The position numbers were made by a program, and so were the translations under genes. Shown in pieces: positions 6,612-61,904 of a stretch of DNA of 64,000 nt. The notes beneath the pieces are model-generated. The model searched no databases. It was given only the letters and a program-made list of their open reading frames with translations, and was not told the DNA's origin. Each line of letters opens with the position of its first letter. The stretch's first letter is position 1. The DNA comes from Candidatus Levyibacteriota bacterium (GTDB lineage Bacteria; Patescibacteriota; Microgenomatia; Levybacterales; UBA12049), in assembly GCA_963716145.1 (NCBI GenBank), contig OY970292.1:469171-533170 (forward strand), in the 5' to 3' direction.

Positions 6612-7808
6612 TTACTTAAATGTCTGAAAAATATCTTTGAAGGTTACCAGGATTATCAATCCGATTAATACCGCCATACCGATTGCATTTGCATACGCTT
6701 CAAATTTGGGGTTTAATTTACGTCTTGTTATAGCCTCTATTTCGATAAAAAATAATCTTCCGCCATCAAGACCGGGAATTGGGAGAATATTGAAAAATGC
6801 CAGAGAAAGAGAAAGTGTACCGGCTATATTGAGTATCTGCAGAAATGCCTCTTTCATGTCCGGAATTTTTATGACATCTCCGACTATTTTAAATATCATC
6901 ACAGGCCCTCCTACATTTTTACTAAGCGGTTCCGCGGTTTTTTCTTTGACAGACTGCTTGAATATTGTTTTTATTCCGTCCACGTTATAAAGAAATGTGT
7001 TGTATGTGTGAGAAAATCCTGAAAACATCATCTGCGAGGGCTTTTGGTAGCTGAGAATTGCCAGATTATATGGATTAAAATCAAAAGCTATACCAACTGA
7101 TCCTTCATTTTTGGGAGGTGAAACTCTAGGTGTAATTTTGGCTGAAAATTCCTTGTTCTTCCTTATATCAAACCATTCAATTGTTGTTTCTTTTCCCTTG
7201 TTTTTATTTATAATTGCTATTAGATCATTGTTGCTGGTAATTTTTTTATTGTTTATTGATGTAAGCACTGACGGAGGTTTAACTCCAGCCTTGTCAGCAG
7301 GAGAATTTGGAGCGACTCTGCCAATTGATGCGCCCTTGGGTATTATTTTCTGATTTACACCCATAAAATGCGGAGCATTCTCTCCCAATAAAGGGATTAC
7401 TGTCTGAAAATTGGAAATCCCCAAAAAAGCATAAAAAATAACAACAGCCAAAAGCAAGTTCATCACAACTCCGGCGATAATTACCGAGGCTCTCTGCCAA
7501 ATTGAACGGCTGAAAAAAGCCCGGTGCTCCGCAACTTTGAACTTTGAACTTTGAACTTTGAACTTGACGCGGCCGGCGCCAGCGTCGTCTTCTCCATACA
7601 ATTTAACAAACCCTCCAATAAGAGCCGGATAGAAAGAATAAAGAGTCTCTCCCCTTTTTACGGAAAATAACGCTTTTGTTAAGGGAAGACCAAATCCAAA
7701 TTCTTCAACCTTAATTCCAAACTTCTTGGCGACAAAAAAATGACCTGCTTCATGAATGAGAACCAATACTGAGAGAAGGAGAAGAAAAACAAGAGCGGTA
7801 ATAAACAT
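6612..7808 (-). CDS. rseP: RIP metalloprotease RseP (site-2 protease, M50 family with PDZ domain)
   Basis: HEAGHFFVAKKFGIKVEEFGFGLP (HExxH in TM1). Central PDZ-like region. C-terminal LDGG motif (NILPIPGLDGGRLFF). Confidence 0.85.
   Translation of the reverse strand: MFITALVFLLLLSVLVLIHEAGHFFVAKKFGIKVEEFGFGLPLTKALFSVKRGETLYSFYPALIGGFVKLYGEDDAGAGRVKFKVQSSKFKVAEHRAFFSRSIWQRASVIIAGVVMNLLLAVVIFYAFLGISNFQTVIPLLGENAPHFMGVNQKIIPKGASIGRVAPNSPADKAGVKPPSVLTSINNKKITSNNDLIAIINKNKGKETTIEWFDIRKNKEFSAKITPRVSPPKNEGSVGIAFDFNPYNLAILSYQKPSQMMFSGFSHTYNTFLYNVDGIKTIFKQSVKEKTAEPLSKNVGGPVMIFKIVGDVIKIPDMKEAFLQILNIAGTLSLSLAFFNILPIPGLDGGRLFFIEIEAITRRKLNPKFEAYANAIGMAVLIGLIILVTFKDIFQTFK
7533..7565. repeat. 33-nt tandem heptamer block (AACTTTG)x4+AACTT inserted in frame in rseP (codes FKVQSSKFKVQ)
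   Basis: Read directly from the sequence. An identical block occurs in topA at 45591-45623. Confidence 0.9.
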
Positions 7809-9904: not shown

Positions 9905-10005
9905 CGGAAAACTCAGAAAACTCAGTAGTACAGTTGTTTCAGATCATCTGAAAAATCTGATAGTCAGAATCTCTGGCTTTCCGAGTATTCTGAGTGTTCT
10001 GAGAA
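9905..10005. mobile_element. about 100-nt palindromic dispersed element (copy A, intergenic tsf-frr), same family as the two in-frame copies in topA
   Basis: atttcggaaaactcagaaaactcag ... tcagatcatctga ... ccgagtattctgagtgttctgagaa. The ends are inverted repeats of each other, with an internal palindrome. Shares terminal words with the elements at 44499-44590 and 45224-45309. Confidence 0.55.
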
Positions 10006-10009
10006 TAAT

Positions 10010-10465
10010 CTATATTTGAAATCTTTTAAACTCTTTAACTGTGATGTTCTCTCCCAATTTGCCAATTGCTGATTTTACAAGCTGTTCAATTTTTATGCTC
10101 GAATCCCGGATAGAATCTTGCTTCAGCAATGCTTCCACACTTGCAGGATTCATAGCAGATACCTGCATTGCAAGCTCATGAGCCAGGTGTTTGAACTCAT
10201 CTGTTTTGGCGACAAAATCTGTCTCACAAAGAAGAGTCAGCAGAACCCCAATCTTTCCACCTTGATGGATATATGCTTCAACCAATCCCTGACCCGTTTC
10301 CCGTCCCGATTTTTTCTCGGCTTTTTCTATACCTCTTTTTTTAAGCCACTCAAGCGCTTTTTTGTAGTCCCCTTTTGACTCGTCAAGTGCCTGGCGGCAA
10401 TCGGCAATTGATGCGCTGGTTTCATCCCGGAGCTTTTTGAGTAATTTTAGATCGATGTTTGCCAT
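10010..10465 (-). CDS. tsf: elongation factor Ts (short form); start at MANIDLK
   Basis: MANIDLKLLKKLRDETSASIADCRQALDESKGDYKKALEWLKKRG is the EF-Ts UBA-like N-terminus. The ORF-track N-terminal extension (10466-10618) is the low-complexity tail region of rpsB in another frame. Confidence 0.85.
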   Translation of the reverse strand: MANIDLKLLKKLRDETSASIADCRQALDESKGDYKKALEWLKKRGIEKAEKKSGRETGQGLVEAYIHQGGKIGVLLTLLCETDFVAKTDEFKHLAHELAMQVSAMNPASVEALLKQDSIRDSSIKIEQLVKSAIGKLGENITVKEFKRFQI

Positions 10466-10496: not shown

Positions 10497-11450
10497 TTAT
10501 GATTTTTTTGCTTTTGGTTTTTTATCCTTTGCGGGTTTAACTTTTGGTTTTGTAGATTTACTAGGCTCCTTTTTCCCTGATTCTTGATTCTTAATTCCTG
10601 ATTCTTTTTCAACCGCACTTGTCGCCATTTCCTTTGCCCAGGTTGTGTCGGTTTTTTTAGCTTTGGCCTCTTCTTTTGCCTTCTCGGCCGCGATCTTTGC
10701 GTCCTCTTTCTCTTTCTCTACTGCCTCCTTTGCATCAATAATCTGCTTTGCGGATTTGCCTTCAATCCATGAATCAAAAATATAACTTATGATCAGCTTC
10801 AAACTCCCCACGGCGTCATCATTTGCGGGAATAGGGTAATCAATAATCATCGGATCGGAATTGGTATCTGTGATCCCAATTGAGGGTGTTCCCATTTTTA
10901 AAGCTTCTTCGGCTGCTGCGTGCTCTTCATGAGTATCTATAATAAAAACAGCGTCAGGAGTTCTGGTCATATCGGCAATTCCGCCGTAAAAATTTTCAAG
11001 TTTTTGACGATTTTTCTCCCATTCGCTTATTTCTTTTTTGGTATAACTCGCCTTTTCATTCTCATCCTGTAAACGGTAACTGATATCTGTTAATTTTTTG
11101 AAGTTTTTGGCAACTTCTGAAAAATTGGTGAGTGTTCCTCCGATCCAACGCTTTGTAACGAAATATAGACCTTGGGAACTTGTCTGATCAAGTCTTGTGA
11201 GTTCTTCGCGCAGAATTGTCTCAGCCTGTCTCTTGGTACCAAGAACAAGAAGTGTTCCTCCTTTTTTGGCTAAATCACGGACAAATTTACCTGCTTCTTC
11301 AAGTCCCTCTTTGGTCTTTTCCAAATCAATAATGTGGATATTGTCGCGGGTCTCAAAGATGAATTCACGCATCTTTGGATTTTGGCGGGAGACTTGGTGT
11401 CCGAAATGACAACCAGCCTCAAGTAATTCTTCAAGTGTAACGTTTCTCAT
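10497..11450 (-). CDS. rpsB: 30S ribosomal protein S2 with Lys-rich C-terminal extension; start at MRNVTLEEL
   Basis: LLEAGCHFGHQVSRQNPKM ... IIDTHEEHAAAEEALKMGTPSIGITDTNSDP matches S2. The C-terminal tail AKAKKTDTT...KPKAKKS is low complexity and contains the IKNQE repeat block. Confidence 0.9.
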   Translation of the reverse strand: MRNVTLEELLEAGCHFGHQVSRQNPKMREFIFETRDNIHIIDLEKTKEGLEEAGKFVRDLAKKGGTLLVLGTKRQAETILREELTRLDQTSSQGLYFVTKRWIGGTLTNFSEVAKNFKKLTDISYRLQDENEKASYTKKEISEWEKNRQKLENFYGGIADMTRTPDAVFIIDTHEEHAAAEEALKMGTPSIGITDTNSDPMIIDYPIPANDDAVGSLKLIISYIFDSWIEGKSAKQIIDAKEAVEKEKEDAKIAAEKAKEEAKAKKTDTTWAKEMATSAVEKESGIKNQESGKKEPSKSTKPKVKPAKDKKPKAKKS

Positions 11451-32189: not shown

Positions 32190-32231
32190 ATTTTTATTGT
32201 ATCGTATTGGAAGCTTTTGTCAACAACAATG

Positions 32232-32304
32232 TGGGTGCTAATAGAATCGAACTATTGACCTCTTTCTTATCAGGAAAGCGTTCTAGCCACTGAACTAAGC
32301 ACCC
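32232..32304 (-). tRNA. tRNA-Ile (anticodon GAU)
   Basis: Reverse complement folds as GGGTGCT-TA-GTTC-AGTGGCTA-GAAC-G-CTTTC-CTGATAA-GAAAG-AGGTC-AATAG-TTCGATT-CTATT-AGCACCC-A. 7-bp acceptor stem, TTCGATT T-loop, anticodon loop CU-GAU-AA. Confidence 0.85.
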
Positions 32305-32446
32305 GTTTTAGCTAATAGCACATGGCTAATAGCTTATAGATTATACCGTATAACTTCGTTTCTGACCATACGCTATATGCCATAAGCTATAGGCAAATGA
32401 CGAAGTCATTCTACAAGGTCCGGCCTCCTGGGGTAGAGTTGATCAC

Positions 32447-32611
32447 TTTCTAAGTTTTTTCTTATCAGTTGAATTTTTTTTGAAAATTAGGTTACCGGAA
32501 ACATTCTTCCACTGGCCAGGCTGCATATCCACAGCCTTATCCAGCTCCTTCTCACTATGACCCGTAAAGTCAGCATCAATTTCGTGTTCGTTTATTATTT
32601 CTTTATCCATA
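32447..32611 (-). CDS. possible small protein (about 54 aa: MDKEIINEHEIDADFTGHSEKELDKAVDMQPGQWKNVSGNLIFKK...)
   Basis: Own translation. Below the ORF-track size cutoff. Sits in the tRNA-flanked small-gene island. Confidence 0.2.
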
Positions 32612-32617
32612 TTTAAT

Positions 32618-32842
32618 TTAATGATGCGCAGTACTCTTTTCCGCCTTTCGTCCTCTACCTGATTTTACAATTCCCCTACCCAATAGAAAAAGAGCGCCAC
32701 CAATTGCAACTGGCCATAATACACTTGCTGCTATTATCTCAGCAACTCCGTACACCATCAAACCCAGTCCCCCAACTTCTGCCGTTACACCCACAGCATC
32801 TCTTGGTCTGAAATTATTTTTTCCTCCGCGTTCTGCTGACAT
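32618..32842 (-). CDS. small hydrophobic protein (74 aa, two predicted TM helices)
   Basis: GVTAEVGGLGLMVYGVAEIIAASVLWPVAIGGALFLLGRGI. 12 nt downstream of the 98-aa gene. Confidence 0.4.
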   Translation of the reverse strand: MSAERGGKNNFRPRDAVGVTAEVGGLGLMVYGVAEIIAASVLWPVAIGGALFLLGRGIVKSGRGRKAEKSTAHH

Positions 32843-32854
32843 AATTTCCTCTTT

Positions 32855-33151
32855 CTAGGCAGCTTTTGCTAAATGCACAGGTCTTCCAGGTTTCATATCT
32901 CCTTTTAACTTTCTCCTCGCCCACTTGGATCCTTCAATTTGAATTTTATCAGAACCAGCCCAAGCACCGGTTGCAACAAGTGCCAAACCTGCCAAGGGAA
33001 TTCCTGCAAGTAACGCAACTCCTGAAACAATAGCGGCAGGCTTACTAATACGGTAAGATGCTCTATTGTACGTATCAATAGGGCCAAGTACGCCCTCCTC
33101 CCCCGGTTTGGGTCTGGAGCTTTTCCAAAATGATTCAATTCTTCCTGCCAT
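32855..33151 (-). CDS. small membrane protein (98 aa, one TM helix)
   Basis: AAIVSGVALLAGIPLAGLALVATGAWAGS. Located between tRNA-Cys and tRNA-Ile. Confidence 0.4.
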   Translation of the reverse strand: MAGRIESFWKSSRPKPGEEGVLGPIDTYNRASYRISKPAAIVSGVALLAGIPLAGLALVATGAWAGSDKIQIEGSKWARRKLKGDMKPGRPVHLAKAA

Positions 33152-33269
33152 ATTTTCCTTTCTTTGCCTAATCTTATAGATTAAACTATTTGGTTTAAAA
33201 CTTTATTAAAGATTTGTAATAATTTAATATTATTTCTGCCGTTTTAGTCAAAATCCTACGGATTTTGAG

Positions 33270-33342
33270 AGGCGCGAAAGGGAGTCGAACCCTTGCATGG
33301 AAGTTTTGCAAACTCCTGCGTTAACCACTTCGCCACCGCGCC
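33270..33342 (-). tRNA. tRNA-Cys (anticodon GCA)
   Basis: Reverse complement is GGCGCGG-TG-GCGA-AGTGGTTA-ACGC-A-GGAGT-TTGCAAA-ACTTC-CATGC-AAGGG-TTCGACT-CCCTT-TCGCGCC-T. U73 discriminator typical of tRNA-Cys. Confidence 0.85.
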
Positions 33343-33472
33343 ACGTAAAAATTTGCTTTGCAAATTAACGTGGCTGGAACGTTTAAATTTATGGAATAAA
33401 TTTATTACGTTCTGCCATTCATCACAAAGCTTGTTAATTTTAGCACAGCCTCGCTAAAGAGGCAATCAGGAC

Positions 33473-33502
33473 ACAAAAAATCCCGCATAGTTGCGGGACG
33501 AG
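33473..33502 (-). terminator. intrinsic terminator (conserved hairpin family, copy 3)
   Basis: Minus strand reads ctcgtCCCGCAactaTGCGGGattttttgtg: a GC stem plus U-tract, directly after the stop of the 33528-34106 gene. Confidence 0.6.
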
Positions 33503-33527
33503 TTTGTTCTTACTTCTTATAATTGTC

Positions 33528-34106
33528 TCACAAGCCTCTTATGTTTTGTCCTACTCGCTCTCGCAGTCTTGATTGAAAATCGGTTACCCTCGCATCAAGC
33601 TCAGGTCCTGGTGTATTACCAGCTAAAAACCTTCTATGCCGAGTCAGAGACCGTTGCCATAAAACAGAATCGGCTTGCTCACGATTTTGAGCAGCAGTTG
33701 CAGAGGCAGCACTGTGTAAAAATTCAGCCAGATCAAAAGGTTTGTGCCGACTCAAAATTGGATAAGCTCGATGACCCCTTACCATTGTAGATGCCAAAAC
33801 AATTACCTCTTGATCGCCCTTATCTCCTTTCATTGCTTCGACTAAATCTCTGGTTAACTCATTTACATTTAAAATTCCTGTCCCAAAGCCTTTAGATATA
33901 TCGTCACATCTATCTGTTACCGTTTGAACAGACTTATTAATTCCTTCTCTGACCGCACTGTCATCACTTGAGAACTCATCAGCAAAGCTCATTAAATCCC
34001 CTTCTAAATCTGGATCTATTCCTTCTAACTCTCTATACGCCGTCATGAATGCAATTATACTACAGATTTGAGTCTTGTCAATCGTTTTGCCTGCCGTTAT
34101 AGTCAA
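33528..34106 (-). CDS. hypothetical protein (192 aa) between 16S rRNA and tRNA-Cys
   Basis: Intact ORF bounded by two copies of the conserved terminator hairpin. No family recognised. Confidence 0.45.
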   Translation of the reverse strand: MTITAGKTIDKTQICSIIAFMTAYRELEGIDPDLEGDLMSFADEFSSDDSAVREGINKSVQTVTDRCDDISKGFGTGILNVNELTRDLVEAMKGDKGDQEVIVLASTMVRGHRAYPILSRHKPFDLAEFLHSAASATAAQNREQADSVLWQRSLTRHRRFLAGNTPGPELDARVTDFQSRLRERVGQNIRGL

Positions 34107-34109
34107 AAC

Positions 34110-34138
34110 GCAAAAAATCCCGCAGTTGGTGCGGGATT
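34110..34138 (-). terminator. intrinsic terminator (conserved hairpin family, copy 2) about 270 nt downstream of the 16S 3' end
   Basis: Minus strand reads caaacaATCCCGCaccaacTGCGGGATtttttgcgtttt. Confidence 0.55.
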
Positions 34139-34404
34139 GTTTGTTAATTTAAATACACTTTAAACTTTTAATTCTGCTTTGCAGAAAACCAAGATGTGGT
34201 AGGAGAGCGAGAGTAGAAATTGTTTTATCCTAAGTGACCTAACTAAGTGTTAGGTTGCTCCGATAAATCGGAGTTTGCGGATAAAACCAGACGCTACTCA
34301 CTTCATCTGTTGCCACATTTTTCCGTGCAGCCATTAGCCAATAGCTATTAGCTATTTGCCATATGCTACTACGTTATATGTCTTCCCCTTTCCTTAAAAA
34401 AAAG

Positions 34405-35875
<1,471 letters not shown>

Positions 35876-36179
35876 AAAAAAAATTATAGAAGTTTTAAGG
35901 CTTCTAAAATCCTGTGTCAGGTTATTCTTTTTTATCCAAACTTGCGTCGGGATAGAGGAAAAAACCTGATAAAAATTCCTACCACATCTTGATTACCAAA
36001 CACCTTTTTCCCTTACAAAGATAGGTTGCTTGGTTCCTCCCTAGATTAAGGAGGTTTTAAAGTGTACTTAAATTATTAAAGTGCTCTTCGGTTCGCTTTG
36101 CTCTCTCAGAGTAAACTGCTCAGTCTAATGAAGTATGTAAAATAAAGACTTGTGCTGAGCTTGCCGAAGTACAAAAAAT

Positions 36180-36275: not shown

Positions 36276-36424
36276 TTCGAGGACTAGGTATATGAAGAAG
36301 GTGGAAGGCTAATTTTCAATTTTTAATTTTCAGTTTTCAATCAAATTACAATGACACGATTTTGAAAATTTAAACATTGAAGCATTCAATGAAAATTGTA
36401 AATTGAGAATTGAGAATTCGGAGC

Positions 36425-37304: not shown

Positions 37305-37415
37305 TTAAACTTATAACTGATTACTTATAACTGATAACATTTCGTTATTGTTATTTGTTATGAGTTATCAGTCGTCATAACTTGTTATCTGTTATTAGTT
37401 ATCAGTTGGAGAACT
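37305..37415. repeat. AT-rich palindromic word-repeat element (TTATAACTGATAAC family)
   Basis: cttataactgattacttataactgataac ... gttatcagtcgtcataacttgttatctgttattagttatcag. A second copy is at 54905-54985. Confidence 0.6.
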
Positions 37416-43687: not shown

Positions 43688-45919
43688 TTAACTGCTTTGG
43701 AGTTTTACATTTTTGCTTTCTTTCGCTTCCGAGCTCTTGTTAATTTCTTCAAGTTTCCATGCCGCGAAGTCGCACTTCGGATAGTTCGCACAGCCATAGA
43801 ATTTGCGGCCTTTTCTGGTTTTGCGAATAATTACTTTCCCTCCGTCTTTTGGACACAAAACATTGGTCTCCTCAACAAAAGTTTTGGTGTATTTACATTC
43901 AGGAAATCTGCTGCATGAGAAAAATTTGCCAAATTTTCCGTGTCTTATCACAACCGGTGCACCGCACTCAGGACATTTTTCATCTGTTGCTTCTGTGGCT
44001 ATCGCTACCCGCACCGATCCTTCTGCCTCCTCAACCGCTTTCTCAAAAGGCGTGTAAAAATCCTTCATCATCTTGACCCATTGTACTTTTCCGCTTGCAA
44101 CATCATCCAGCTGTTCCTCCATCGAAGCGGTGAAGGGAATATCATCAATTGTTGAAAAATTGGCGACCAGAAAATCATTCACCGACATCCCAATTGGCGT
44201 GGGGACAAACTTTTTTTCAATCCGTTCAACATAAGCACGATCCACGAGGGTTGAAATAATGGAGGCATAAGTTGAAGGCCTGCCAATCCCCTTTTCCTCA
44301 AGAGTTCCGATAATTGACGCCTCATTGTATCTTGGAGGGGGAAGCGTTTCATGCTGCTCAAAACGCGCTTTAATTAGATCGAGTAACTCTTTTGCTAAAA
44401 ATTTTGGCAATTGATTATCTTTAAGCGCCTGGGGATTTAACTTCAAAAATCCGTCAAAGACCAAAACCGAACCAGCTGCTTTAAGTCGATATTTCGGAAC
44501 ACTCGGAAAACTCGGTGTATCAGTGTTTCTGACTTTCTGATCATCAGATTGTCTGACAGACTGGATTTCTGAGTGTTCGGAGTTTTCTGAAATTGCATCA
44601 ACTAAAACTGAAGTGGATTCGACAATAGCATCCGCCATCTGCGAGGACACTGCCCTCCTCCAAATCAAATCGTATAGCTTTGCATAATCTTTCCCGAGTT
44701 CATTCTGAACTATGAATTCTGAATTCTGAACCTTGGTGGGCCTGATTCCCTCATGGGCCTCCTGCGCGTTTTTCTGTTTGCCAGAAAAAATACGGGGTGC
44801 TTCGGGTAAGTATTTTTTCCCATATTCTTTTTCAACAAACGCTCTGAACTGGGAGATCGCGGCTTTTGAAATCGCTATTGAATCTGTTCTGTGATAAGTG
44901 ATGAAGCCTTCTTCATAAAGTTTTTGGGCAAGACTCATCGTCCGTTTTCCGGGAAATCCAAAGCGCCTGGATGCCTCTTGCTGAAGAGTTGAAGTTGTAA
45001 AAACAGGTCCCGGACTTCTCTTTGCTTGTTTTTGCACAACATCTGAAACTGTGAAATTGTTCTTTTCAAGATCGCGGGTAATCTCCTGAGCCCTTTTTTC
45101 ACTATCAATAGTTGTTCTTGTGACATTATATTCACCATCATAAAGTTCAAATTTTTCTTTTGCTTCGATCTTGCTGCCATTAATCTCAACCAGCTCAAAA
45201 TCTGTTCCTTCTTTGCCCAGAACACTCGGAAAACTCGGTCCGCCGGATTGTCTGATTGTCGGAGTATCAGAATCGCCGGATTTCTGAGTATTCTGAGTTT
45301 TCTGAGAAGAAACCAAGGTAGCATGAACTGTAAAATATGATTTCTTTGCAAATTTCTCAATCTCCCGCTCCCGCTCAACAATCATCCGTAGTGCAACGCT
45401 TTGTACACGCCCTGCTGACAAACCCCGGCGTACCTTTTTCCAGAGTAATGGCGACAATTCATAACCAACTAAACGATCCAAAACCCGCCTTGCAGTCTGC
45501 GCCTCAACCAAATTCATGTCAACTTCCCGTGGATTATCCAGGGCTTCTTTAATTGCCGATTCCGTAATTTCATGAAAAGCTATCCGCCTAAACTTTGAAC
45601 TTTGAACTTTGAACTTTGAACTTGAGAGGAGCACATCTCTGATGTGCGACGCGATAGCCTCCCCTTCGCGGTCCGGATCTGTTGCCAAAATTATCTTATC
45701 AGCCGATTTAGCAAGGGATTTTAGTTCAGCAATTAGTTTTTTCTTATCTGCAATTACTTCATAAAGCGGTGTAAAGTTGTGCTCAATATCGATTCCCATC
45801 TTGCTTTTGGGCAAATCCATGACATGACCCATTGAGAATTTGATCTCATAATCCTTCCCGAGGAATTTGCTAATTGTTCGGGCTTTAGTGGGTGATTCGA
45901 CAATTACTAAACTTTTCAT
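43688..45919 (-). CDS. topA: DNA topoisomerase I with three in-frame repeat-element insertions
   Basis: TOPRIM start MKSLVIVESPTKARTISKFLGKDYEIKFSMGHVMDLP. Catalytic region ...GFITYHRTDS. C-terminal Zn ribbons CPECGAPVVIRHGKFGKFFSCSRFPEC / CPKDGG...YGCANYPKC. Insertions are at aa 100-110 (SKFKVQSSKF), 203-233 and 440-476. Confidence 0.9.
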   Translation of the reverse strand: MKSLVIVESPTKARTISKFLGKDYEIKFSMGHVMDLPKSKMGIDIEHNFTPLYEVIADKKKLIAELKSLAKSADKIILATDPDREGEAIASHIRDVLLSSSKFKVQSSKFRRIAFHEITESAIKEALDNPREVDMNLVEAQTARRVLDRLVGYELSPLLWKKVRRGLSAGRVQSVALRMIVEREREIEKFAKKSYFTVHATLVSSQKTQNTQKSGDSDTPTIRQSGGPSFPSVLGKEGTDFELVEINGSKIEAKEKFELYDGEYNVTRTTIDSEKRAQEITRDLEKNNFTVSDVVQKQAKRSPGPVFTTSTLQQEASRRFGFPGKRTMSLAQKLYEEGFITYHRTDSIAISKAAISQFRAFVEKEYGKKYLPEAPRIFSGKQKNAQEAHEGIRPTKVQNSEFIVQNELGKDYAKLYDLIWRRAVSSQMADAIVESTSVLVDAISENSEHSEIQSVRQSDDQKVRNTDTPSFPSVPKYRLKAAGSVLVFDGFLKLNPQALKDNQLPKFLAKELLDLIKARFEQHETLPPPRYNEASIIGTLEEKGIGRPSTYASIISTLVDRAYVERIEKKFVPTPIGMSVNDFLVANFSTIDDIPFTASMEEQLDDVASGKVQWVKMMKDFYTPFEKAVEEAEGSVRVAIATEATDEKCPECGAPVVIRHGKFGKFFSCSRFPECKYTKTFVEETNVLCPKDGGKVIIRKTRKGRKFYGCANYPKCDFAAWKLEEINKSSEAKESKNVKLQSS
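44499..44590. mobile_element. palindromic dispersed element, copy C, in frame inside topA (adds ...SENSEHSEIQSVRQSDDQKVRNTDTPSFPSV...)
   Basis: cactcggaaaactcgg ... ctgatcatcag ... atttctgagtgttcggagttttctga. Same terminal words as copies A and B. Confidence 0.6.
45224..45309. mobile_element. palindromic dispersed element, copy B, in frame inside topA (adds VSSQKTQNTQKSGDSDTPTIRQSGGPSFPSV)
   Basis: cactcggaaaactcggtccgccggattgtctgattgtcggagtatcagaatcgccggatttctgagtattctgagttttctgag. Confidence 0.6.
45591..45623. repeat. 33-nt tandem heptamer block (AACTTTG)x4+AACTT in frame in topA; identical to 7533-7565
   Basis: Read directly from the sequence. Confidence 0.9.
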
Positions 45920-52579: not shown

Positions 52580-54412
52580 TTACCTTTTCGTGAAATACGC
52601 CTCCAGGATCTTCTTCGCAATTGGTGCTGCCTCATTTGACCCTTCACCGCTCTCCTCATTGAGGACTGTTACAACAATTTCAGGATTATATGCCGGTGCA
52701 AAAAGCGTGATCCATGCATGAGGCAATGTTTTCTCTCCACCATGCTGGGCAGTTCCCGTCTTGCATGCAATCTTAACTTCCCGGAGATCTTTTGCAGCAG
52801 CAGATCCGCTCGCTTGTTTTACTTCCAAAATATTTTTTCCGTCAATTCTTAATTCTGAATTCTTAATTCTGAAGTTAAAAAGCGGCCAGGCTACCCCGCC
52901 AGTTGAGCAACTCTCAATCATCCCCTGCCGGATCAAGCTAATCGTTTTTTCGTCCAGTAATTTTTGATTTCTGATTTTTGATTTCTGATTTTTGAGCAAA
53001 TGTGGTTCGTATAAAGAACCACCATTTGCGACTACCTCTGTCCATTCATTCACTTGAAGAGGTGTTGTCAGGAGAAATCCCTGTCCAATTCCATAATGAT
53101 AAGTATCTCCCAAATACCAATTCTCCCCAATTATATCTTTTTTCCATTTTTCCGTTGGGACCAGTCCTTTCGCTTCCCCACCCAAATCAATGCCTGTTTT
53201 TGCTCCCAATCCAAATTTTTCTGCCATTTCGGATAGCTTGTCAGCGCTTACTTTCTCTGCTAATTTGTAGAAAAAAATGTCGTTGGATCTAGCCAATGCC
53301 CTTACAACATTTAACTCTCCTGGTTCTGTCCTGCCGTATCCTGTATAATACCAATTGGCAAAAGAGAACTCCCCAACTTTTATAATCCCGGTATCCCTTA
53401 TCCGATAATTCTCATCAATAATTTTGTCTGCGAGTCCAGTCGATGCCGTTACTATTTTAAAGGTCGATCCTGGCGGATAAGTTCCCCCAATTGCTCGGTT
53501 AAGAAGCGGCTGGTTTTGCGAATCAGATAAAATTTCGCTTACGTTTTTGTGAGCACTATCCGAAGCCGCCCTGTAAGTCTTGTCTAGCGTAAAAAGATTG
53601 GGATCAAAAGATGGTCTTGAAATCAAAGACAAAATTTCGCCATTCGGAGTTGATACAATTACAGCCCCTTTTTTAACATTTTTTGTGGCATCAAAAGCTG
53701 CTTGCTGAAGTTTTGAGTCGATAGTTAAGGTGAGATCTTGCCCTGCAATAGAATCTGTTGTCCCCAGTGGGCGGACTTTTTTGCCCATGGCGTCGACTTC
53801 GACAAGCTGTTTGCCGTCAACTCCTTTAAGAATATGTTCATACTGCCTTTCAATTCCATTTTTACCAATCCAGTCCGTGCCGCGGTAATCGCCAAACTCA
53901 GTAGTATCAAGCTCAGATTTTGAAATCTGACCAATGTATCCCAATACGTGACTCAGACTGTCTTTGTAGACATAGTCTCTTAGCGAATCAACCTCCAGAT
54001 TCTTATCTCCTTTTGCAATCAACGGCAGGGCCTGCTCTTTCGAAAGCGGCACGGTAGTTTCTGGTTCACACTTTTGCGCTTTTTCGCTCTTGCACTCTTG
54101 CACTTTATTATTTATCTGCCTGAAACCGGGCTTATTTAGAACAAGGGGAACTCCACTGCGGTCAAATATAACCCCTCGGGGGGCATGGATGACTTGGGTT
54201 CTGATTCTATTGGAATCGGACAGAATACGATAATCAGCACCTTTAATAACCTGCAGATAAAATAACTTTGGCAGGAGAATAATTCCAACCCCCAGCAACA
54301 CAAGCGGCAGTAAAAACCCCCGCACAGCATATGCAGATGGACCATCTGAATAGCGCCTCTTTTTAATTTTCTCGGTTTTTATGTGCTCTCCAAAAGCGTA
54401 TCCGGTCTTCAT
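52580..54412 (-). CDS. mrdA: penicillin-binding protein 2 (elongasome transpeptidase)
   Basis: N-terminal TM. Dimerisation domain. Transpeptidase motifs STFKIVTASTGL (SxxK), SND-like, KTG (IACKTGTAQ). Adjacent to mreD/mreC/mreB. Carries two in-frame low-complexity blocks (NSELRIKNSE, KSKIRNQKLL). Confidence 0.85.
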   Translation of the reverse strand: MKTGYAFGEHIKTEKIKKRRYSDGPSAYAVRGFLLPLVLLGVGIILLPKLFYLQVIKGADYRILSDSNRIRTQVIHAPRGVIFDRSGVPLVLNKPGFRQINNKVQECKSEKAQKCEPETTVPLSKEQALPLIAKGDKNLEVDSLRDYVYKDSLSHVLGYIGQISKSELDTTEFGDYRGTDWIGKNGIERQYEHILKGVDGKQLVEVDAMGKKVRPLGTTDSIAGQDLTLTIDSKLQQAAFDATKNVKKGAVIVSTPNGEILSLISRPSFDPNLFTLDKTYRAASDSAHKNVSEILSDSQNQPLLNRAIGGTYPPGSTFKIVTASTGLADKIIDENYRIRDTGIIKVGEFSFANWYYTGYGRTEPGELNVVRALARSNDIFFYKLAEKVSADKLSEMAEKFGLGAKTGIDLGGEAKGLVPTEKWKKDIIGENWYLGDTYHYGIGQGFLLTTPLQVNEWTEVVANGGSLYEPHLLKNQKSKIRNQKLLDEKTISLIRQGMIESCSTGGVAWPLFNFRIKNSELRIDGKNILEVKQASGSAAAKDLREVKIACKTGTAQHGGEKTLPHAWITLFAPAYNPEIVVTVLNEESGEGSNEAAPIAKKILEAYFTKR

Positions 54413-54420
54413 AGATAATT

Positions 54421-54508
54421 TTCAGTTTTCAATTTAAAATTTGAAATGAATATCCAATGTTATAAATTTAAATTTTTAAAATTTAGGATTTAATGAAAAT
54501 TGAAAATT
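54421..54508. repeat. AT-rich palindromic word-repeat element (GAAAATTGAAAATT family) between PBP2 start and mreD stop
   Basis: aattttcagttttcaatttaaaatttgaaa ... gaaaattgaaaatttcaaattgaaaatttt forms an inverted repeat. Family members are at 23655-23748, 36291-36420, 57801-57928, 61017-61075 and 63241-63335. Confidence 0.6.
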
Positions 54509-54913
54509 TCAAATTGAAAATTTTGTGGTTTTCATAATAGCAAATAAAGATACTGCAATTATACAACTAACTCCTGCTTGCAAAAATACTCCTCCGTGCC
54601 CAAAAACCAGCAAATACACGTATGCTCCCGCAAATGAACTGACTATTATGAAGGGATACGAATGTATTTCATACTTGCGCTGATACAAAAGCACCATTAA
54701 AAAAAACAGCAATAAAAAAATGCTTGATGATCCTAAAATTCTGAGATTAAATATATCCAAAAATATACCTGCCGCAAAAGCAAGTGCAAAAATAATAGAC
54801 GTTCTTTTTGCAATACTAATACTCAGAAGAAGTACAAAACTCAGGGGGATTGAAATAACAGTTGCCTCAAAAAGAGCAGAAATAAAGAGTAAAACTAACA
54901 AAATTACGAACAT
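54509..54913 (-). CDS. mreD: rod shape-determining protein MreD (putative)
   Basis: 134-aa protein with 4-5 TM helices immediately downstream of mreC and upstream of PBP2, the canonical mreBCD-mrdA order. Confidence 0.5.
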   Translation of the reverse strand: MFVILLVLLFISALFEATVISIPLSFVLLLSISIAKRTSIIFALAFAAGIFLDIFNLRILGSSSIFLLLFFLMVLLYQRKYEIHSYPFIIVSSFAGAYVYLLVFGHGGVFLQAGVSCIIAVSLFAIMKTTKFSI

Positions 54914-54966
54914 AAACTTATAACTTATAACTTATAACTTATAACTGAGTTATCAGTTATCGGTCA

Positions 54967-55724
54967 TCAGTTATTAGTGGTGATCACAAACACAGTCTCC
55001 AATTTGTTAAAATCAACCAAACTTCTTATATCCGCGGATTGAAATAGATTGCTTGCTTTTTTATTTACTGACACTATTTTTCCGACTACCAGATCAGGCG
55101 GAAATCCTAGACCATTTTCGTCCGTATCTCCCTTTGTGCTGACCAAATCGTCTTTTTCCAATCCTTCTGCCAAAACTACATTATCAAGCACCAGTCCTCC
55201 CGCTTGTCCACGTATTATTCCGAGGAGCCTGTTTTAAGTGTTTTTGCGGTAAATGATATGTTGCTTGAAATAAGCCTTATAATTGAAAGATGTTGAGATG
55301 CTTTGTCTACCTTACCAACCAGATTGTCTTTTACAACAACCACCTGCCCCTTTTTTATGCCGTCTGCCTGTCCTTTGTCTATTATGATAGTCTCCCCCAT
55401 CCCACCTATTACCATTGCCGGTAAAAGCGTTCTTGGGGATGGATTTGCGGTTTCGAATTGATCCCTAAGGGCCTGGATTTCATGTACCTGTTCTGTCTGC
55501 TTTACTAGCTCTGATGCCAATTTTGCATTTTCCTCTCGCAACTTTACTGTCTCTCCTCTATCTGAATTTATTGTGCCAAAAACCGTCCGCTGCAAAGGAA
55601 GTGTTGCACCCTCAAAAAAACCGGTTAAACCGGCGAGATATCCGGCGCGGGATAAAACAAAAAGAAGTATTGCAAGAATAAAAAAAATCAAAAAAACAGG
55701 GAAAAAGCTCTTCCTCTTTTGCAT
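54967..55724 (-). CDS. mreC: rod shape-determining protein MreC, interrupted by a 1-nt frameshift near 55205
   Basis: ORF 55215-55724 has the TM plus coiled coil (ENAKLASELVKQTEQVHEIQALRDQ) and first beta domain. ORF 54967-55191 has the conserved C-terminal domain (GLVLDNVVLAEGLEKDDLVSTKGDTDENGLGFPPDLVVGKIV). Restoring one G in tcgg(g)aataata joins them. Confidence 0.75.
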
Positions 55725-57655: not shown

Positions 57656-57928
57656 ATCAAAACCAATTCTATCAGCTTGTCCCGTTAGAAATCCAGTATT
57701 AATACTTCTGATTAATATAACAAAATGCATCAATTTTATAAAAGTTAGCTTGAAAATTTTTCTAACGGGGCTTGCCCACATTTTTCCAATATGATAACAT
57801 CATAAAAGAATTTAAAATTTTCAATTTTTAATTTTCATTGAATTTTCAATTATTAAGTTTTTAATGTTTTAAACATTTTAAATTATGATTTCATTGAAAA
57901 TTTCAAATTTCGAATTGAAAATTAAACT

Positions 57929-60406
57929 ATGAAAATCATCAATTATCTCAACCGCATTATTGAATTCTCTTTCTACCTCCTTTTCCTGCTTGTACCTCTG
58001 GTTTTCAGCAGCTCTCCCTCTGAGCTGTTTGAATTCCCCAAAATGTGGCTTACTTTTGGATTAACGATAGTAATTGTCACCTTCTGGATTGTAAAAATGA
58101 TCCTCCAAAGGAGGATTCTTATTCAACGGACACCGCTAGATATTCCTCTCCTTCTTTTCCTTACTTCCCAAATAGTCTCAACTCTTTATTCACTCGATCC
58201 TCACGTCTCTCTCTGGGGATATTATTCACGATTTAATGGCGGACTACTTTCGACAATTTCTTATGTACTTTTGTATTATGCCTTTGTTAGCAATTTTTCA
58301 AACAACGTTGAAGTTAAAAAACCAAATGGACTTATTTATTCAATCTTCGCAATAGGAATTACTCTTCTCCTGAGCCTATCTACAATAGTCATGACAGGAC
58401 TTTCTTTTCTCTCCTTAAGTGTTTTTTTAACCAGCAGCATATTCTTTCTGAGCACTTGGTATCTACCGGGAAGTGTAGCAATGCGAACAATTTCAATAAG
58501 CTTAATATCTGGATCACTTGTCGCACTCTGGGGATTTCCATCACACTTTGGATATGATCCGACTTGTTTTATTTTCAGAGGGAGTTTTGACACATCATGT
58601 TGGACTGAAGCTTTTAAGCCCACAATCCGAATCTTCTCAACTCTTGGCCAGCCTGCATGGCTAGCAGCATATCTATCTATTCTAATACCGCTTGCGATTT
58701 CATATTTTTTGATATCTCGAGAAACGCAAGATACATCTTCAACAAAGAATCAAGAATCAAGAATCAAGAATTACGGAAACCCAAAAAAAAATTATCTTAC
58801 TTCTTACTTCTTACTTCTTACTTCTTTACTCTTTTATGCTTGCCTCACCTACACCGATACCAGAGGCGGATTCATCGGTTTCTGGATCGCCAATCTTATT
58901 TTCTGGGGCTTAGTTTATTTTAAAAAAATTTTATCCGGCAAAAATTTTCTTAAATATTTTCTTATATTTAATCTTTTATTTTTAATCTTTAATTTTCTAC
59001 AAGGTATTCCCATTTCACAAATTTCAAAATTCACTTATCCTGAGCTAAATAAAACACAATCAAGCCCAACTGTAGTACCAAAGCCAGCTGCCGGAGAACT
59101 CGGCGGAACTGATTCCGGCAAAATCCGCCTTTTAGTTTGGCAAGGAGCAATTGATATATGGCAGGACAATCCAATTATCGGCACCGGTGTTGAGACTTAT
59201 GCTTTTGCGTACTATAAATACAAGCCGGTAGCGCACAATCTCACATCCGAATGGGATTATCTCTACAACAAAGCCCACAATGAATACCTGAATTATCTGG
59301 CTACAACAGGGATATTTGGATTGGGAAGCTACTTAGCAATCATCGGGACGTTCCTTTTCCTCTGTCTTAAGCATCTCAAAATTCAAAATTCAAAATTCAA
59401 AACTACAACTCAAAATTCAAAAATTGAAAACTTGGAAAATTCATTGGAAATTGGAAATTGGAAATTGGAAATTGCCCTTATCGCAAGCTATATTTCAATC
59501 CTCGTTTCTAACTTCTTCGGCTTCTCGGTTGTGATCATCAATCTCTATTTCTTTTTAATCCCGGCATTTGTCTTTATACTGGGAAATTTTCTGAGTCCTG
59601 ACAAAGCTTTAGTGTTCCCAAACAATAAATTAAGAGCTGAGAATCAAGAATTAAGGAAAAAAGAAAATATTACAGCGCTACAATGGATTCTTATTGCACT
59701 CTTACTTCTTACTTCTTACTTCTTACTTCTTACTTTAGTACGCTACTGGAATGCTGACATAAATTACGCGATCGGGTCAAATCTTGATAAAGCCGGCAGT
59801 TACCAGGAAGCAACTAAACCGCTCCAAAACGCAGTGGAGGCAAAACCCAATGAACCGGTATACAAAGACGAACTGTCGATAAATTTAGGCACACTCGCCG
59901 CTGCTCTCTACCTACAGAAAGATGCTTCAAGCGGTGCACAGCTTGCCCGTGACGCGATTTCACTTAGCGATCAGGTAGTTGCAAATCACCCCAATGATGT
60001 TGTCTTTTGGAAAAACCGCGTACGGCTTTTCTACACACTTGCACAAGGCGACACAGCGCATGAAAAAAATTACCTTGACCAAGCTCTAAAAGCGATTAAA
60101 AAAACTCAAGAGCTGGCTCCAAATGATGCCAAAATTTCTTATAACTATGCTGTTTTAGCTGGACAGATTAAGACTCCTCAAAAAGGAATTGAGATTCTTG
60201 AAAATACTATTAAATTGAAACCAGACTACCGCGATGCATATTTTGCATTGGGATTGTATTTTCATCAGTTGGCAACAGATAAAGATGGAAATGTTGTGGA
60301 TTCTGCTTTGCAGAAAAAAGCAGTTGACGCTTATAACTACATTCTAAAAAATCTTGATCCAAATGATAAACAAATAAAAGATAGCTTGAAAAGTTGGGAG
60401 AAATAA
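57929..60406 (+). CDS. O-antigen ligase (Wzy_C) family membrane protein with C-terminal TPR repeats
   Basis: About 12 TM helices. Wzy_C core RLLVWQGAIDIWQDNPIIGTGVETYAFAY...HNLTSEWDYLYNKAHNEYLNYLATTGIFG. C-terminal 250 aa with TPR-like repeats (AYFALGLYFHQL...). Three in-frame low-complexity blocks. Confidence 0.7.
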   Translation: MKIINYLNRIIEFSFYLLFLLVPLVFSSSPSELFEFPKMWLTFGLTIVIVTFWIVKMILQRRILIQRTPLDIPLLLFLTSQIVSTLYSLDPHVSLWGYYSRFNGGLLSTISYVLLYYAFVSNFSNNVEVKKPNGLIYSIFAIGITLLLSLSTIVMTGLSFLSLSVFLTSSIFFLSTWYLPGSVAMRTISISLISGSLVALWGFPSHFGYDPTCFIFRGSFDTSCWTEAFKPTIRIFSTLGQPAWLAAYLSILIPLAISYFLISRETQDTSSTKNQESRIKNYGNPKKNYLTSYFLLLTSLLFYACLTYTDTRGGFIGFWIANLIFWGLVYFKKILSGKNFLKYFLIFNLLFLIFNFLQGIPISQISKFTYPELNKTQSSPTVVPKPAAGELGGTDSGKIRLLVWQGAIDIWQDNPIIGTGVETYAFAYYKYKPVAHNLTSEWDYLYNKAHNEYLNYLATTGIFGLGSYLAIIGTFLFLCLKHLKIQNSKFKTTTQNSKIENLENSLEIGNWKLEIALIASYISILVSNFFGFSVVIINLYFFLIPAFVFILGNFLSPDKALVFPNNKLRAENQELRKKENITALQWILIALLLLTSYFLLLTLVRYWNADINYAIGSNLDKAGSYQEATKPLQNAVEAKPNEPVYKDELSINLGTLAAALYLQKDASSGAQLARDAISLSDQVVANHPNDVVFWKNRVRLFYTLAQGDTAHEKNYLDQALKAIKKTQELAPNDAKISYNYAVLAGQIKTPQKGIEILENTIKLKPDYRDAYFALGLYFHQLATDKDGNVVDSALQKKAVDAYNYILKNLDPNDKQIKDSLKSWEK

Positions 60407-61016: not shown

Positions 61017-61037
61017 ATTTTAAACATTAAAAATTGA

Positions 61038-61904
61038 ATGAAAATTGAAAATTTTAAATTGAAAATTGTTTTTTTGGGTAATACCAAATTCTCGCTCATC
61101 GGTGCACAGATTATTCATCAAAAAATCGGATTGTCTCAAATAGTGACGCTCCCCGACCGGCCTGATAAAAAGGGTAACCCAGCTCCAAACCCTCTAAAAA
61201 CCTTTGCAATTGAAAATAAAATTCCTTATCTTTTGGTTGATAAAATAACCGATGAAATTGTAGCTCAAATTGAGGCATTAAACCCAGATTTTCTGGTAGT
61301 TGAAGACTATGGATTAATTTTGCCCCCCCAACTTCTAACAGTCCCCAAATACCTAAGTCTTAATATCCACCATTCTTTACTGCCAAAATACCGTGGCACT
61401 TCCCCGGCACCCTTTGCTATTTTGGCGGGCGACAAAATAACAGGAGTTACAGTGATTGCGATGAATGACAAAGTAGACGCCGGTGACATTTTGGCGCAAA
61501 AAAATTACGAGATGAAACCCGATGAAACAACAGAAAGTCTTCTGACAGAATTAAATAAATTGGGCGGAGAAATAATAATTCCTGTTATAGAGAATTACGC
61601 AAAAGGAAAAATAGACGCCAAAAAACAGGATGAGTCAAAAGCAACTTACACAATGCGCATGAGCAAATCTGATGGACAGATTGATCTAAATAAGCCGCCG
61701 GATAAAGCCAAACTCGACCGCATGATTAGAGCATATTATCCCTGGCCGACCGTATGGACCAAAGCAAGAATTAAGAATCAAGAATTAAGAATAAAGTTCT
61801 TGCCCAAGCAAAAACTTCAAGTGGATGGCGGCAAACCAATGAGTCTTAAAGATTTTTTCAACGGCTATCCGGAATTGAAAAACCAAATAGAAAAATTGGT
61901 TTAG
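61038..61904 (+). CDS. fmt: methionyl-tRNA formyltransferase
   Basis: NIHHSLLPKYRGTSPAPFAILAGDKITGVTV (formyltransferase core). C-terminal domain present. The gene begins inside a GAAAATTGAAAATT word repeat (MKIENFKLKIV). Confidence 0.85.
   Translation: MKIENFKLKIVFLGNTKFSLIGAQIIHQKIGLSQIVTLPDRPDKKGNPAPNPLKTFAIENKIPYLLVDKITDEIVAQIEALNPDFLVVEDYGLILPPQLLTVPKYLSLNIHHSLLPKYRGTSPAPFAILAGDKITGVTVIAMNDKVDAGDILAQKNYEMKPDETTESLLTELNKLGGEIIIPVIENYAKGKIDAKKQDESKATYTMRMSKSDGQIDLNKPPDKAKLDRMIRAYYPWPTVWTKARIKNQELRIKFLPKQKLQVDGGKPMSLKDFFNGYPELKNQIEKLV

What the first reader, a model, noticed from the sequence alone, without database searches (positions are those of the whole stretch)
7533..7565. Identical 33-nt heptamer-repeat block in frame in two unrelated essential genes (rseP and topA)
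(AACTTTG)4AACTT is present at 7533-7565 inside rseP and at 45591-45623 inside topA, both on the coding strand as (GAACTTT)n. It encodes the same peptide, SSKFKVQSSKFKV, in both proteins. Identical 33-nt insertions in two conserved enzymes cannot be ancestral. This indicates a second family of short mobile or template-copied repeats, whose 33-nt length preserves the frame. Heptamer tandems also slip easily, so repeat number could vary by 7 nt and cause frameshifts, a phase-variation-like liability in essential genes.
Basis: seen in the sequence. Interest (0 to 1): 0.62.

Follow-up and report, generated by a model that had tools for sequence, protein, structure and literature searches.

The report
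Ancient in-frame heptamer repeats in housekeeping genes
The two identical 33-base blocks are real, but they are old 7-base tandem repeats that sit at the same codons of RseP and topoisomerase I across a whole group of tiny uncultured bacteria, not fresh insertions, and in topoisomerase I the repeat is the best-conserved DNA in the gene.

Summary
(AACTTTG)4AACTT occurs exactly at 7533-7565 and 45591-45623. The identity extends to 35 nt, with zero matches expected by chance. Both blocks lie in minus-strand genes confirmed as rseP and topA.

- The blocks belong to a dense population of 7-nt tandem arrays. Period 7 is the only enriched period, in the window and in relatives.
- They are not recent insertions. 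Orthologues across the Levybacteria-like clade carry a five-unit array at the same codons.
- Unit variants spread over all units while the length stays fixed, which is concerted evolution.
- The exact 37-nt topA array recurs in two lineages whose synonymous sites are saturated. It is the longest identical stretch in the gene.
- The two genes read the block in different frames. They share only KFKVQSSKF.
- Phase variation is unsupported.

What remains open is why the two loci are identical: copying between arrays, or retention of a common ancestral unit. Heptamer repeats are a known but unexplained bacterial phenomenon. Position-conserved, nucleotide-frozen arrays inside essential genes look like a new variant of it.

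The parts
7533..7567 (-). Five-unit heptamer array in rseP. The coding strand reads TCAAGTT(CAAAGTT)4 and encodes (V)KFKVQSSKFKV.
   Evidence: The orthologous arrays in L004, L005, L006 and L316 have the same five-unit layout.
45590..45626 (-). Five-unit heptamer array in topA. The coding strand reads C TCAAGTT(CAAAGTT)4 T and encodes SSSKFKVQSSKF. This 37-nt stretch is identical in L311 and L312.
   Evidence: It is the longest exact match in the whole gene (37 nt, next 22 nt).
6612..7808 (-). rseP gene (site-2 / M50 metalloprotease with a PDZ domain).
43688..45919 (-). topA gene (type I DNA topoisomerase).
44702..44730 (-). Second, imperfect heptamer array in topA. The unit is TTCAGAA and it encodes VQNSEFIVQN.
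   Evidence: In the alignment, relatives show heptamer-like peptides at the same site.
52844..52995 (-). Two heptamer arrays in the PBP2 transpeptidase gene (52844-52870 encoding RIKNSELRI, 52960-52995 encoding KNQKSKIRNQK). Both sites carry arrays in relatives.
61766..61796 (+). Heptamer array in the fmt gene, encoding RIKNQELRI. It matches the PBP2 array at 52844-52870 in 24 of 26 nt and shares the same 14-nt T/C alternation.
   Evidence: (pair I23).
58745..59735 (+). Five heptamer arrays inside the Wzy_C/TPR membrane-protein gene: 58745-58771, 58795-58826, 59376-59402, 59443-59474 and 59700-59735.
10578..10606 (-). Heptamer array (unit AAGAATC) in the C-terminal tail of ribosomal protein S2.
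54915..54978 (.). Intergenic inverted pair of heptamer arrays, (AACTTAT)4.6 followed by (AGTTATC)4.4, which folds as a hairpin.
   Evidence: z-score -3.2.

Best explanation
The two blocks are heptanucleotide simple-sequence repeats. They belong to a genome-wide and clade-wide population of 7-nt tandem arrays. Each block sits in-frame in a surface-loop insertion of a housekeeping protein.

Both arrays are old. A five-unit, 35-nt array occupied the same codons of rseP and topA in the common ancestor of this Levybacteria-like (Microgenomates, CPR) clade.

Inferred mechanism:
- The arrays are kept periodic by slippage or template switching between out-of-register units. This erases a new variant or spreads it to all units.
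- Selection removes every product whose length is not a multiple of 3, so gains or losses of 7 or 14 nt frameshift an essential gene and are lost. The unit number therefore stays fixed.
- Each of the seven unit positions is read as codon position 1, 2 and 3 in successive units. A change that spreads across the array is therefore never purely synonymous. Homogenisation combined with even weak selection on the loop could freeze the nucleotide sequence.

The two loci are identical because both belong to the same unit family (NAAAGTT). This arose either by retention of a common ancestral unit or by copying from one array to the other. The evidence does not decide between these.
For: Shown:
- Period 7 is the only enriched tandem period. 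In the window there are 8 exact runs against 0 in shuffles, and 13 arrays by a looser scan against 0-3 at each other period from 4 to 12.
- In 11 relatives' loci there are 27 period-7 arrays against 2 for all other periods from 4 to 12 combined.
- Unrelated metagenome loci carry 0.015 period-7 arrays per kb, against 0.20 per kb in the window.
- The rseP arrays are orthologous and share one layout. Window: GTC AAGTTC (AAAGTTC)3 AAAGTT. L004: AAGTTA, AAAGTTA, AAAGTGA, AAAGTTA, AAAGTT. L316: AAGATT, AAAGATG, AAAGATT, AAAGATT, AAAGAT. Lineage-specific bases recur in all or nearly all units at a constant length.
- The topA arrays are orthologous, with different or degenerate units in L001 and L002.
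- The topA array is the exact same 37 nt in L311 and L312, where flanking third-codon identity is only 0.40-0.44. It is the longest exact match in the gene.
- Across 120 homologues, residue identity at an offset of 7 inside the loop is 0.25 for TopA and 0.19 for RseP, against a 0.068 background.
- The arrays fall on gaps relative to solved TopA and RseP structures.
- The coding arrays have no RNA structure.

Inferred: the slippage or conversion mechanism, and the idea that the nucleotide sequence is frozen by coupling across the three frames.
Against: - Neutral concerted evolution should not slow substitution. Perfect 37-nt identity across saturated divergence therefore needs extra selection or repeated resetting.
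- The SSSKFKVQSSKF state is scattered over at least 4 lineages of the TopA tree. The window's closest relatives (85-87% identity) carry ENQKSKIKNQKF instead. This fits overwriting as well as it fits retention.
- TopA proteins that are 95% identical (P0005 and P0007) have unrelated arrays at this site. Replacement can therefore be abrupt rather than gradual.
- Units within a genome are related more than chance predicts. AT-rich (CAAAGTT)n arrays occur in several copies even in genomes of 63-67% GC. This points to dispersal rather than local birth by slippage.
- No variants differing by one 7-nt unit were observed, because no strain or read data exist.
Confidence: 0.7

Rival explanations
1. Array-to-array copying. 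In this genome one of the two arrays was recently overwritten from the other, or from a third (CAAAGTT)n array. The route would be ectopic gene conversion or template switching at a stalled fork. More generally, heptamer arrays would spread and be reset by copying between loci.
For: - The 35-nt identity includes the irregular first unit TCAAGTT.
- By parsimony the window's topA array is derived within a group whose other members have AAAATCA units.
- In five other genomes where both genes come from one contig, the two loops are unlike each other, so the identity here is a special event.
- In L001 the topA unit AAAATCA equals the unit of that genome's PBP2 array.
- The window's PBP2 and fmt arrays match in 24 of 26 nt and share the same 14-nt alternation.
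- An abrupt array swap is seen between TopA proteins that are 95% identical.
- Unit families are non-random.
Against: - There is no identity beyond the array in either flank. Only a 5-nt GCGGA is shared, offset by 3 nt.
- Both arrays have the same layout in relatives, including the 6-nt first unit, so common ancestry explains the shared irregularity.
- The same topA sequence in L311 and L312 argues for retention.
- 33-35 nt is short for RecA-dependent exchange (my own knowledge, not tested).
Confidence: 0.35
2. Functional cis-element. (CAAAGTT)n is conserved at the nucleotide level because the DNA or mRNA repeat itself is recognised, for example by a repeat-binding protein or as a pause site. 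This is the kind of role proposed for TAACTGA repeats in Beggiatoaceae.
For: - Conservation goes beyond the amino-acid level. Serine codons alternate between TCA and AGT identically in three lineages.
- The array is the longest identical stretch in topA.
- (CAAAGTT)3 is 2-8 times more frequent in viral contigs than four other heptamers of identical base composition: 38 hits against 5, 10, 10 and 22.
- The literature proposes S1, Csp or CsrA binding for another heptamer (PMC4679880).
Against: - Many relatives have a different or degenerate unit at the same site without losing the gene.
- The array has no RNA structure.
- The window holds many different units.
- No candidate binding factor was identified.
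Confidence: 0.15
3. One reading: recent independent insertion of one 33-nt mobile element into two genes, creating a phase-variable liability.
For: - The two copies are identical.
- The arrays lie in insertions relative to distant homologues.
Against: - Arrays are present at the same codons in all clade members examined.
- There is no presence/absence polymorphism, no terminal repeats and no palindrome.
- Unit number is constant among orthologues.
Confidence: 0.04
4. Assembly or sequencing artefact.
For: None found.
Against: - The same arrays appear in independent assemblies from ENA, NCBI, JGI and Logan, at orthologous codons and in frame.
Confidence: 0.01

Closest known systems
Long simple sequence repeats with 5-11 nt units, heptanucleotide class (Mrazek et al. 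2007, as summarised in PMC4692102 and PMC4679880)
   Same: Tandem 7-nt units are the dominant longer repeat period. Polymerase slippage is the proposed origin. The phylogenetic distribution is scattered.
   Different: - That survey found such repeats mostly in large genomes.
- It noted that coding regions favour unit lengths that are multiples of three.
- Here a roughly 1.1-Mb CPR genome carries them in-frame in essential genes, at positions conserved across a clade.
TAACTGA direct repeats of Beggiatoaceae, cyanobacteria and Bacteroidetes (MacGregor 2015, PMC4679880)
   Same: - One heptamer recurs at many loci.
- Only the stop-free orientation occurs inside ORFs, where it gives a cyclic heptapeptide (LSVISYQ there, KFKVQSS here).
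- No spreading mechanism is known.
- The window even holds TAACTGA-type units (37308-37407, 54948-54978).
   Different: - Those repeats are mainly intergenic and just upstream of start codons.
- When inside ORFs they lie at the protein periphery or in hypothetical proteins.
- Here the arrays are internal loops of conserved enzymes, with many unit families per genome.
GGGAATC repeats in Xanthomonas, GGGGAYT repeats in Nostoc, and the tandemly repeated heptanucleotides of Calothrix PCC 7601 (cited in PMC4692102; known as STRR from my own knowledge)
   Same: - They form heptamer arrays.
- Repeat sites are conserved between related species, with length and sequence variation.
- Some occur as inverted pairs that can form hairpins.
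   Different: Those repeats are G-rich, intergenic and candidates for G-quadruplex formation. The arrays here are AT-rich and coding.
Tandem repeats of Borg elements that create disordered protein regions (PMC9879509, abstract seen)
   Same: Tandem nucleotide repeats add new low-complexity segments to proteins.
   Different: Per that abstract, Borg repeats formed recently, evolve rapidly and arise independently. Here the arrays are ancient, fixed in position and, in some lineages, frozen at the nucleotide level.
Rickettsia palindromic elements (in-frame mobile insertions; from my own knowledge, not checked in a paper)
   Same: Short repeated DNA is tolerated in-frame in housekeeping proteins.
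   Different: - Those elements are 100-150 nt palindromes with presence/absence polymorphism.
- The heptamer blocks are non-palindromic tandem arrays present in all orthologues.
- The separate 70-95-nt element found twice in this topA gene resembles them more closely.

Membership tests
Heptanucleotide long simple sequence repeats (LSSR 5-11 nt) | Head-to-tail iteration of a 7-nt unit, longer than chance allows | tested here: met
   There are 4.7 exact copies at both sites, with 0 matches expected in shuffles.
Heptanucleotide long simple sequence repeats (LSSR 5-11 nt) | Genome-level over-representation of period 7 relative to other periods | tested here: met
   Window: 8 exact runs of at least 3 units at period 7, against 0-1 at every other period from 2 to 15. 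Relatives: 27 period-7 arrays against 2 for all other periods from 4 to 12 combined.
Heptanucleotide long simple sequence repeats (LSSR 5-11 nt) | Length variation by slipped-strand mutation | tested here: inconclusive
   - Unit number is constant among the orthologues examined.
- A few TopA loops are about 7 residues longer, at 20-22 residues against the usual 13-14.
- No strain or read data exist.
Dispersed single-unit heptamer families (TAACTGA, GGGAATC and STRR type) | The same unit recurs at many loci of one genome | tested here: inconclusive
   - Only two CAAAGTT loci occur in the 64-kb window.
- Unit sharing exceeds the null (7 identical pairs against 0.4-1.3).
- The whole 1.14-Mb genome could not be fetched.
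Dispersed single-unit heptamer families (TAACTGA, GGGAATC and STRR type) | Predominantly intergenic location | tested here: not met
   The two blocks are internal to coding sequences. Window-wide, 19 of 38 arrays are coding, although the density is about 8 times higher in intergenic DNA.
Phase-variable contingency loci | Repeat-number changes switch the reading frame on and off among strains or cells | not testable with these tools
   No reads or close strains are available. Among species the length is fixed.
Phase-variable contingency loci | Located in surface, antigenic or restriction-modification genes whose loss is tolerated | tested here: not met
   The host genes are topA and rseP.
In-frame mobile insertion elements (Rickettsia palindromic element type) | Presence/absence polymorphism among orthologues | tested here: not met
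   - An array is present at the same codons in every relative whose DNA was read.
- Most of the 120 homologues of each protein carry a loop of matching length there.
- The arrays are absent only outside the clade.
In-frame mobile insertion elements (Rickettsia palindromic element type) | Palindromic, hairpin-forming sequence | tested here: not met
   Fold z-scores are +0.26 and +1.43.

The most novel reading that the evidence does not exclude
Heptamer arrays are not passive slippage products. On this reading they are actively written or reset from other arrays by a copying process that works inside coding DNA, or they are held by selection as recognised cis-elements.

This would explain three things:
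- why the same 37 nt sits in topA of distant lineages and in rseP of this genome;
- why arrays can be swapped wholesale between proteins that are 95% identical;
- why related units travel together even in GC-rich genomes of other phyla.
Probability: 0.2. Interest if true: 0.8.

Novelty: new variant of a known kind. Interest (0 to 1): 0.55.

Why it matters
Heptanucleotide repeats have been known since 1990-2007 to be the commonest longer simple repeats in bacteria. Neither the preference for 7 nt nor the way units spread has been explained.

This clade offers a natural experiment:
- Arrays are fixed at known codons of essential genes, so length is clamped and only the unit can change.
- Unit-wide substitutions, freezing and wholesale replacement can therefore be read directly from alignments.
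- This makes slippage, array-to-array copying and selection on the repeat separately testable.

The result also shows that a 'simple repeat' can be the most conserved DNA in a gene. That is a caution for low-complexity masking and for annotating insertions in proteins of uncultured bacteria.

Tried and rejected
- **A characteristic array length of about 33 nt.** This was suggested by a loose scan. Exact-run lengths rejected it: they simply decline by unit class, with 103 runs of 3-4 units, 86 of 4-5 and 27 of 5-6.
- **Enrichment of stop-free units in coding arrays.** 13 of 19 units are stop-free, against a 66% null, so there is no signal.
- **RNA hairpin or a partner array for the coding blocks.** None was found.
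- **Target-site duplications or shared flank motifs.** None is convincing. The only shared feature is a 5-nt GCGGA at a 3-nt offset.
- **Fetching the source contig.** It is not on record, and the cluster look-up gave no names.
- **The metagenome scan.** These were used as an outgroup control instead.
- **A clean 33-nt array insertion in the Wzy gene relative to L001.** The alignment is too ambiguous to claim it.
- **Literature searches.** The sequence, the peptide and heptamer repeats in Levybacteria or CPR gave nothing relevant.

Full report
**Observation.**
- The + strand carries (AACTTTG)4AACTT at 7533-7565 and at 45591-45623. The identity extends two bases further, to 35 nt.
- A 21-nt core never occurs in 100 dinucleotide-preserving shuffles.
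- Both copies lie in long minus-strand ORFs.
- ORF 6612-7808 scores above the curated cutoff for RIP metalloprotease RseP and has Peptidase_M50 and PDZ domains. ORF 43688-45919 scores above the cutoff for bacterial type I topoisomerase and has Toprim, Topoisom_bac and zinc-ribbon domains.
- On the coding strand both blocks read TCAAGTT(CAAAGTT)4.
- RseP translates the block as VKFKVQSSKFKV and TopA as SSSKFKVQSSKF. The frames differ by one base. The peptides overlap (KFKVQSSKF) only because three heptamers make 21 nt, which encodes the same cyclic heptapeptide in every frame.

**The blocks are not isolated.**
- Tandem Repeats Finder lists about 40 period-7 arrays in the 64 kb.
- Exact runs of at least three units number 8 at period 7, against 0-1 at every other period from 2 to 15. 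Shuffles give 0 at period 7 and at most 0.3 at any period.
- Half of the arrays are inside genes and in frame. The genes are S2, dCTP deaminase, SpoU, PBP2 (two arrays), a Wzy_C/TPR protein (five arrays), Fmt, and a second array in TopA.
- The other half lie in the 11% of the window that is intergenic, often as inverted pairs that fold as hairpins.
- The units are many but related. Among 23 arrays there are 7 identical unit pairs, against 0.4-1.3 expected.

**RseP orthologues.**
- The 120 best homologues (53-79% identity) all carry a loop of similar length at this site. Many show heptad-periodic peptides such as VKLKVKSEKLKV, VQLKVQSSKSKV and IKIKDQRLKIKD.
- DNA from four relatives shows the same architecture of one 6-nt first unit followed by four units:
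  - window: AAGTTC, AAAGTTC x3, AAAGTT
  - L004: AAGTTA, AAAGTTA, AAAGTGA, AAAGTTA, AAAGTT
  - L005: CAGTTG, AAAGTGC, AAAGTGC, AAAGTCC, AAAGTT
  - L006: CAGTTA, AAAGTTC, AAAGTTC, AAAATCC, AAAGTT
  - L316: AAGATT, AAAGATG, AAAGATT, AAAGATT, AAAGAT
- Lineage-specific bases appear in all or nearly all units, for example C against A at unit position 7 and T against A at position 5.
- This is the signature of concerted evolution. It happens without any change in unit number.

**TopA orthologues.**
- The loop is present in the 120 best homologues. Most loops are 13-14 residues, and residue identity at an offset of 7 is 0.25 against a 0.068 background.
- The closest relatives have other units. L001 has GAAAATC, AAAAGTC, AAAGATC, AAAAATC, AAAAATT. 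L002 is degenerate.
- P0105 (L311) and P0106 (L312) are only 63-65% identical to the window protein. Both carry exactly C TCAAGTT(CAAAGTT)4 T at the same codons, while flanking third-codon identity is 0.40-0.44.
- That 37-nt match is the longest in the whole 2.2-kb gene. The next longest are 20-22 nt. L313 carries a slightly decayed copy.
- On a neighbour-joining tree the SSSKFKVQSSKF state is scattered over at least four lineages. The window protein groups with P0002 and P0003 (85-87% identity), which have ENQKSKIKNQKF.
- P0005 and P0007 are 95% identical yet have unrelated loop DNA. One has an interrupted (GAAAATC) array. The other has a new perfect (ACAAGCC)4 array.
- The site therefore shows both extreme conservation and abrupt replacement.

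**Outside the clade.**
- Solved TopA structures align with a 6-residue gap over the array. Aquifex RseP aligns with a 15-residue gap.
- Eighty distant TopA loci have a 7-9-residue loop and no array. Their DNA has 0.015 period-7 arrays per kb, against 0.20 per kb in the window.
- (AACTTTG)3 occurs in at least 120 loci from many phyla. About half lie in long ORFs, and these are always read as KFKVQSS because the other strand contains TGA. Those loci are themselves heptamer-rich.
- Some of those genomes are 63-67% GC and still hold several copies.
- In viral contigs every heptamer tested gives 5-38 hits. CAAAGTT is the commonest, at 38, against 5, 10, 10 and 22 for four other heptamers of identical base composition.
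- Heptamer arrays are therefore a general bacterial phenomenon with a modest preference among units.

**Mechanism.**
- Shown: the arrays are orthologous and ancient, unit variants spread across the array, length is constant, nucleotide conservation in topA goes beyond the amino-acid level, and there is no RNA structure.
- Inferred:
  - Out-of-register slippage or template switching homogenises the units.
  - Frameshifting products are purged, so only events with no net length change, or gains and losses of 21 nt, survive.
  - Every unit position serves as codon position 1, 2 and 3 in turn, so any spread variant changes amino acids. This could freeze the sequence under weak selection.
- The identity of the two loci has two live explanations:
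  - Shared ancestry of an NAAAGTT unit, supported by the common architecture and by L311 and L312.
  - Copying from one array to another, supported by the derived position of the window's topA state, by the five other genomes where the two loops differ, by the matching topA and PBP2 units in L001, and by the near-identical PBP2 and fmt arrays of the window.

**Comparison with what is known.**
- The literature records that heptanucleotides are the most abundant longer simple repeats, and that polymerase slippage is the proposed cause.
- It also records that coding regions favour unit lengths that are multiples of three (PMC4679880 and PMC4692102).
- Single-unit families such as TAACTGA, GGGAATC, GGGGAYT and the Calothrix heptamers are mainly intergenic and spread by an unknown route.
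- I found no report of such arrays in Levybacteria or other CPR bacteria.
- The present case fits the heptamer-repeat class. It differs in being in-frame within essential genes, fixed in position across a clade, and in part frozen at the nucleotide level.

**Limits.**
- The source proteins are singletons in the protein collection, and the source contig was not retrievable.
- Strain or read variation and a whole-genome census were therefore out of reach.
- The tree is a rough neighbour-joining tree.
- The direction or existence of copying between the two loci is unresolved.

Noticed in passing
window 44480-44600, 45205-45320 and 9925-10020: A 70-95-nt element, TCAGAAAACTCAGAATACTCAGAAATCC...GATTCTGA, contains 9-nt repeats and an internal inverted repeat. 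It occurs twice in-frame in topA, at sites where many relatives have no insertion or a different one. It occurs once more in the spacer between EF-Ts and RRF. It resembles in-frame palindromic insertion elements.
   Followed up: partly
window 36311-36418, 54417-54522, 57808-57923, 61009-61068, 63271-63330: A family of intergenic elements is built from (AATTTTC)n and its inverse (GAAAATT)n. These elements fill much of the short spacers, including spacers between divergent genes. The one copy that was folded gave only a weak z-score of -1.2.
   Followed up: partly
window 37308-37407 and 54948-54978: These intergenic arrays have the unit AGTTATC, which is TCAGTTA rotated and is the reverse complement of TAACTGA. 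That is the heptamer described as abundant in Beggiatoaceae, cyanobacteria and Bacteroidetes (PMC4679880).
   Followed up: no
window 52844-52870 (PBP2) and 61766-61796 (fmt): This is a second pair of unrelated genes with nearly the same array. They match in 24 of 26 nt, share the same AAGAATT/AAGAATC alternation, and encode RIKNSELRI and RIKNQELRI. The PBP2 copy is conserved in L001 and L002.
   Followed up: partly
window 58795-58826 and 59700-59735: Two perfect (TCTTACT)n arrays in the Wzy_C membrane-protein gene encode hydrophobic LLLTSYF-type segments. Heptamer arrays here seem to supply membrane-helix-like sequence as well as hydrophilic loops. L001 has ordinary sequence at the first site.
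   Followed up: partly
L314 707-2872 and L315 1501-3669: These two TopA genes are 95% identical in protein but differ completely over about 100 nt at the loop. One has an interrupted (GAAAATC) array and the other a perfect (ACAAGCC)4 array.
   Followed up: yes
L021 1099-2790: A 63% GC Acidobacteriota contig holds six (CAAAGTT)n arrays around one gene. Four of them are embedded in a higher-order tandem repeat of about 100 nt, and the outer ones are inverted.
   Followed up: partly
L071, L110, L120: A long ORF carries FKVQSSKFKV directly after the motif WIGRSEGAxVxF in three loci from other bacteria. From memory the motif looks like leucyl-tRNA synthetase, but no family search was run. This is another position-conserved (CAAAGTT)n array in an apparently conserved gene.
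   Followed up: no
window 32231-35881: The 16S rRNA gene (34405-35881, minus strand) has no adjacent 23S rRNA gene. It is followed by ORFs with tRNA-Cys and tRNA-Ile further on, so the rRNA genes appear unlinked.
   Followed up: no
window 46000-46260: The C-terminal part of the 747-residue ORF 45938-48181 (called subtilisin-like from the S8 peptidase gene in the syntenic position of relatives) is a 12-nt and 36-nt periodic low-complexity tract. The opposite strand also stays open there as a PPxxPP-rich ORF.
   Followed up: no
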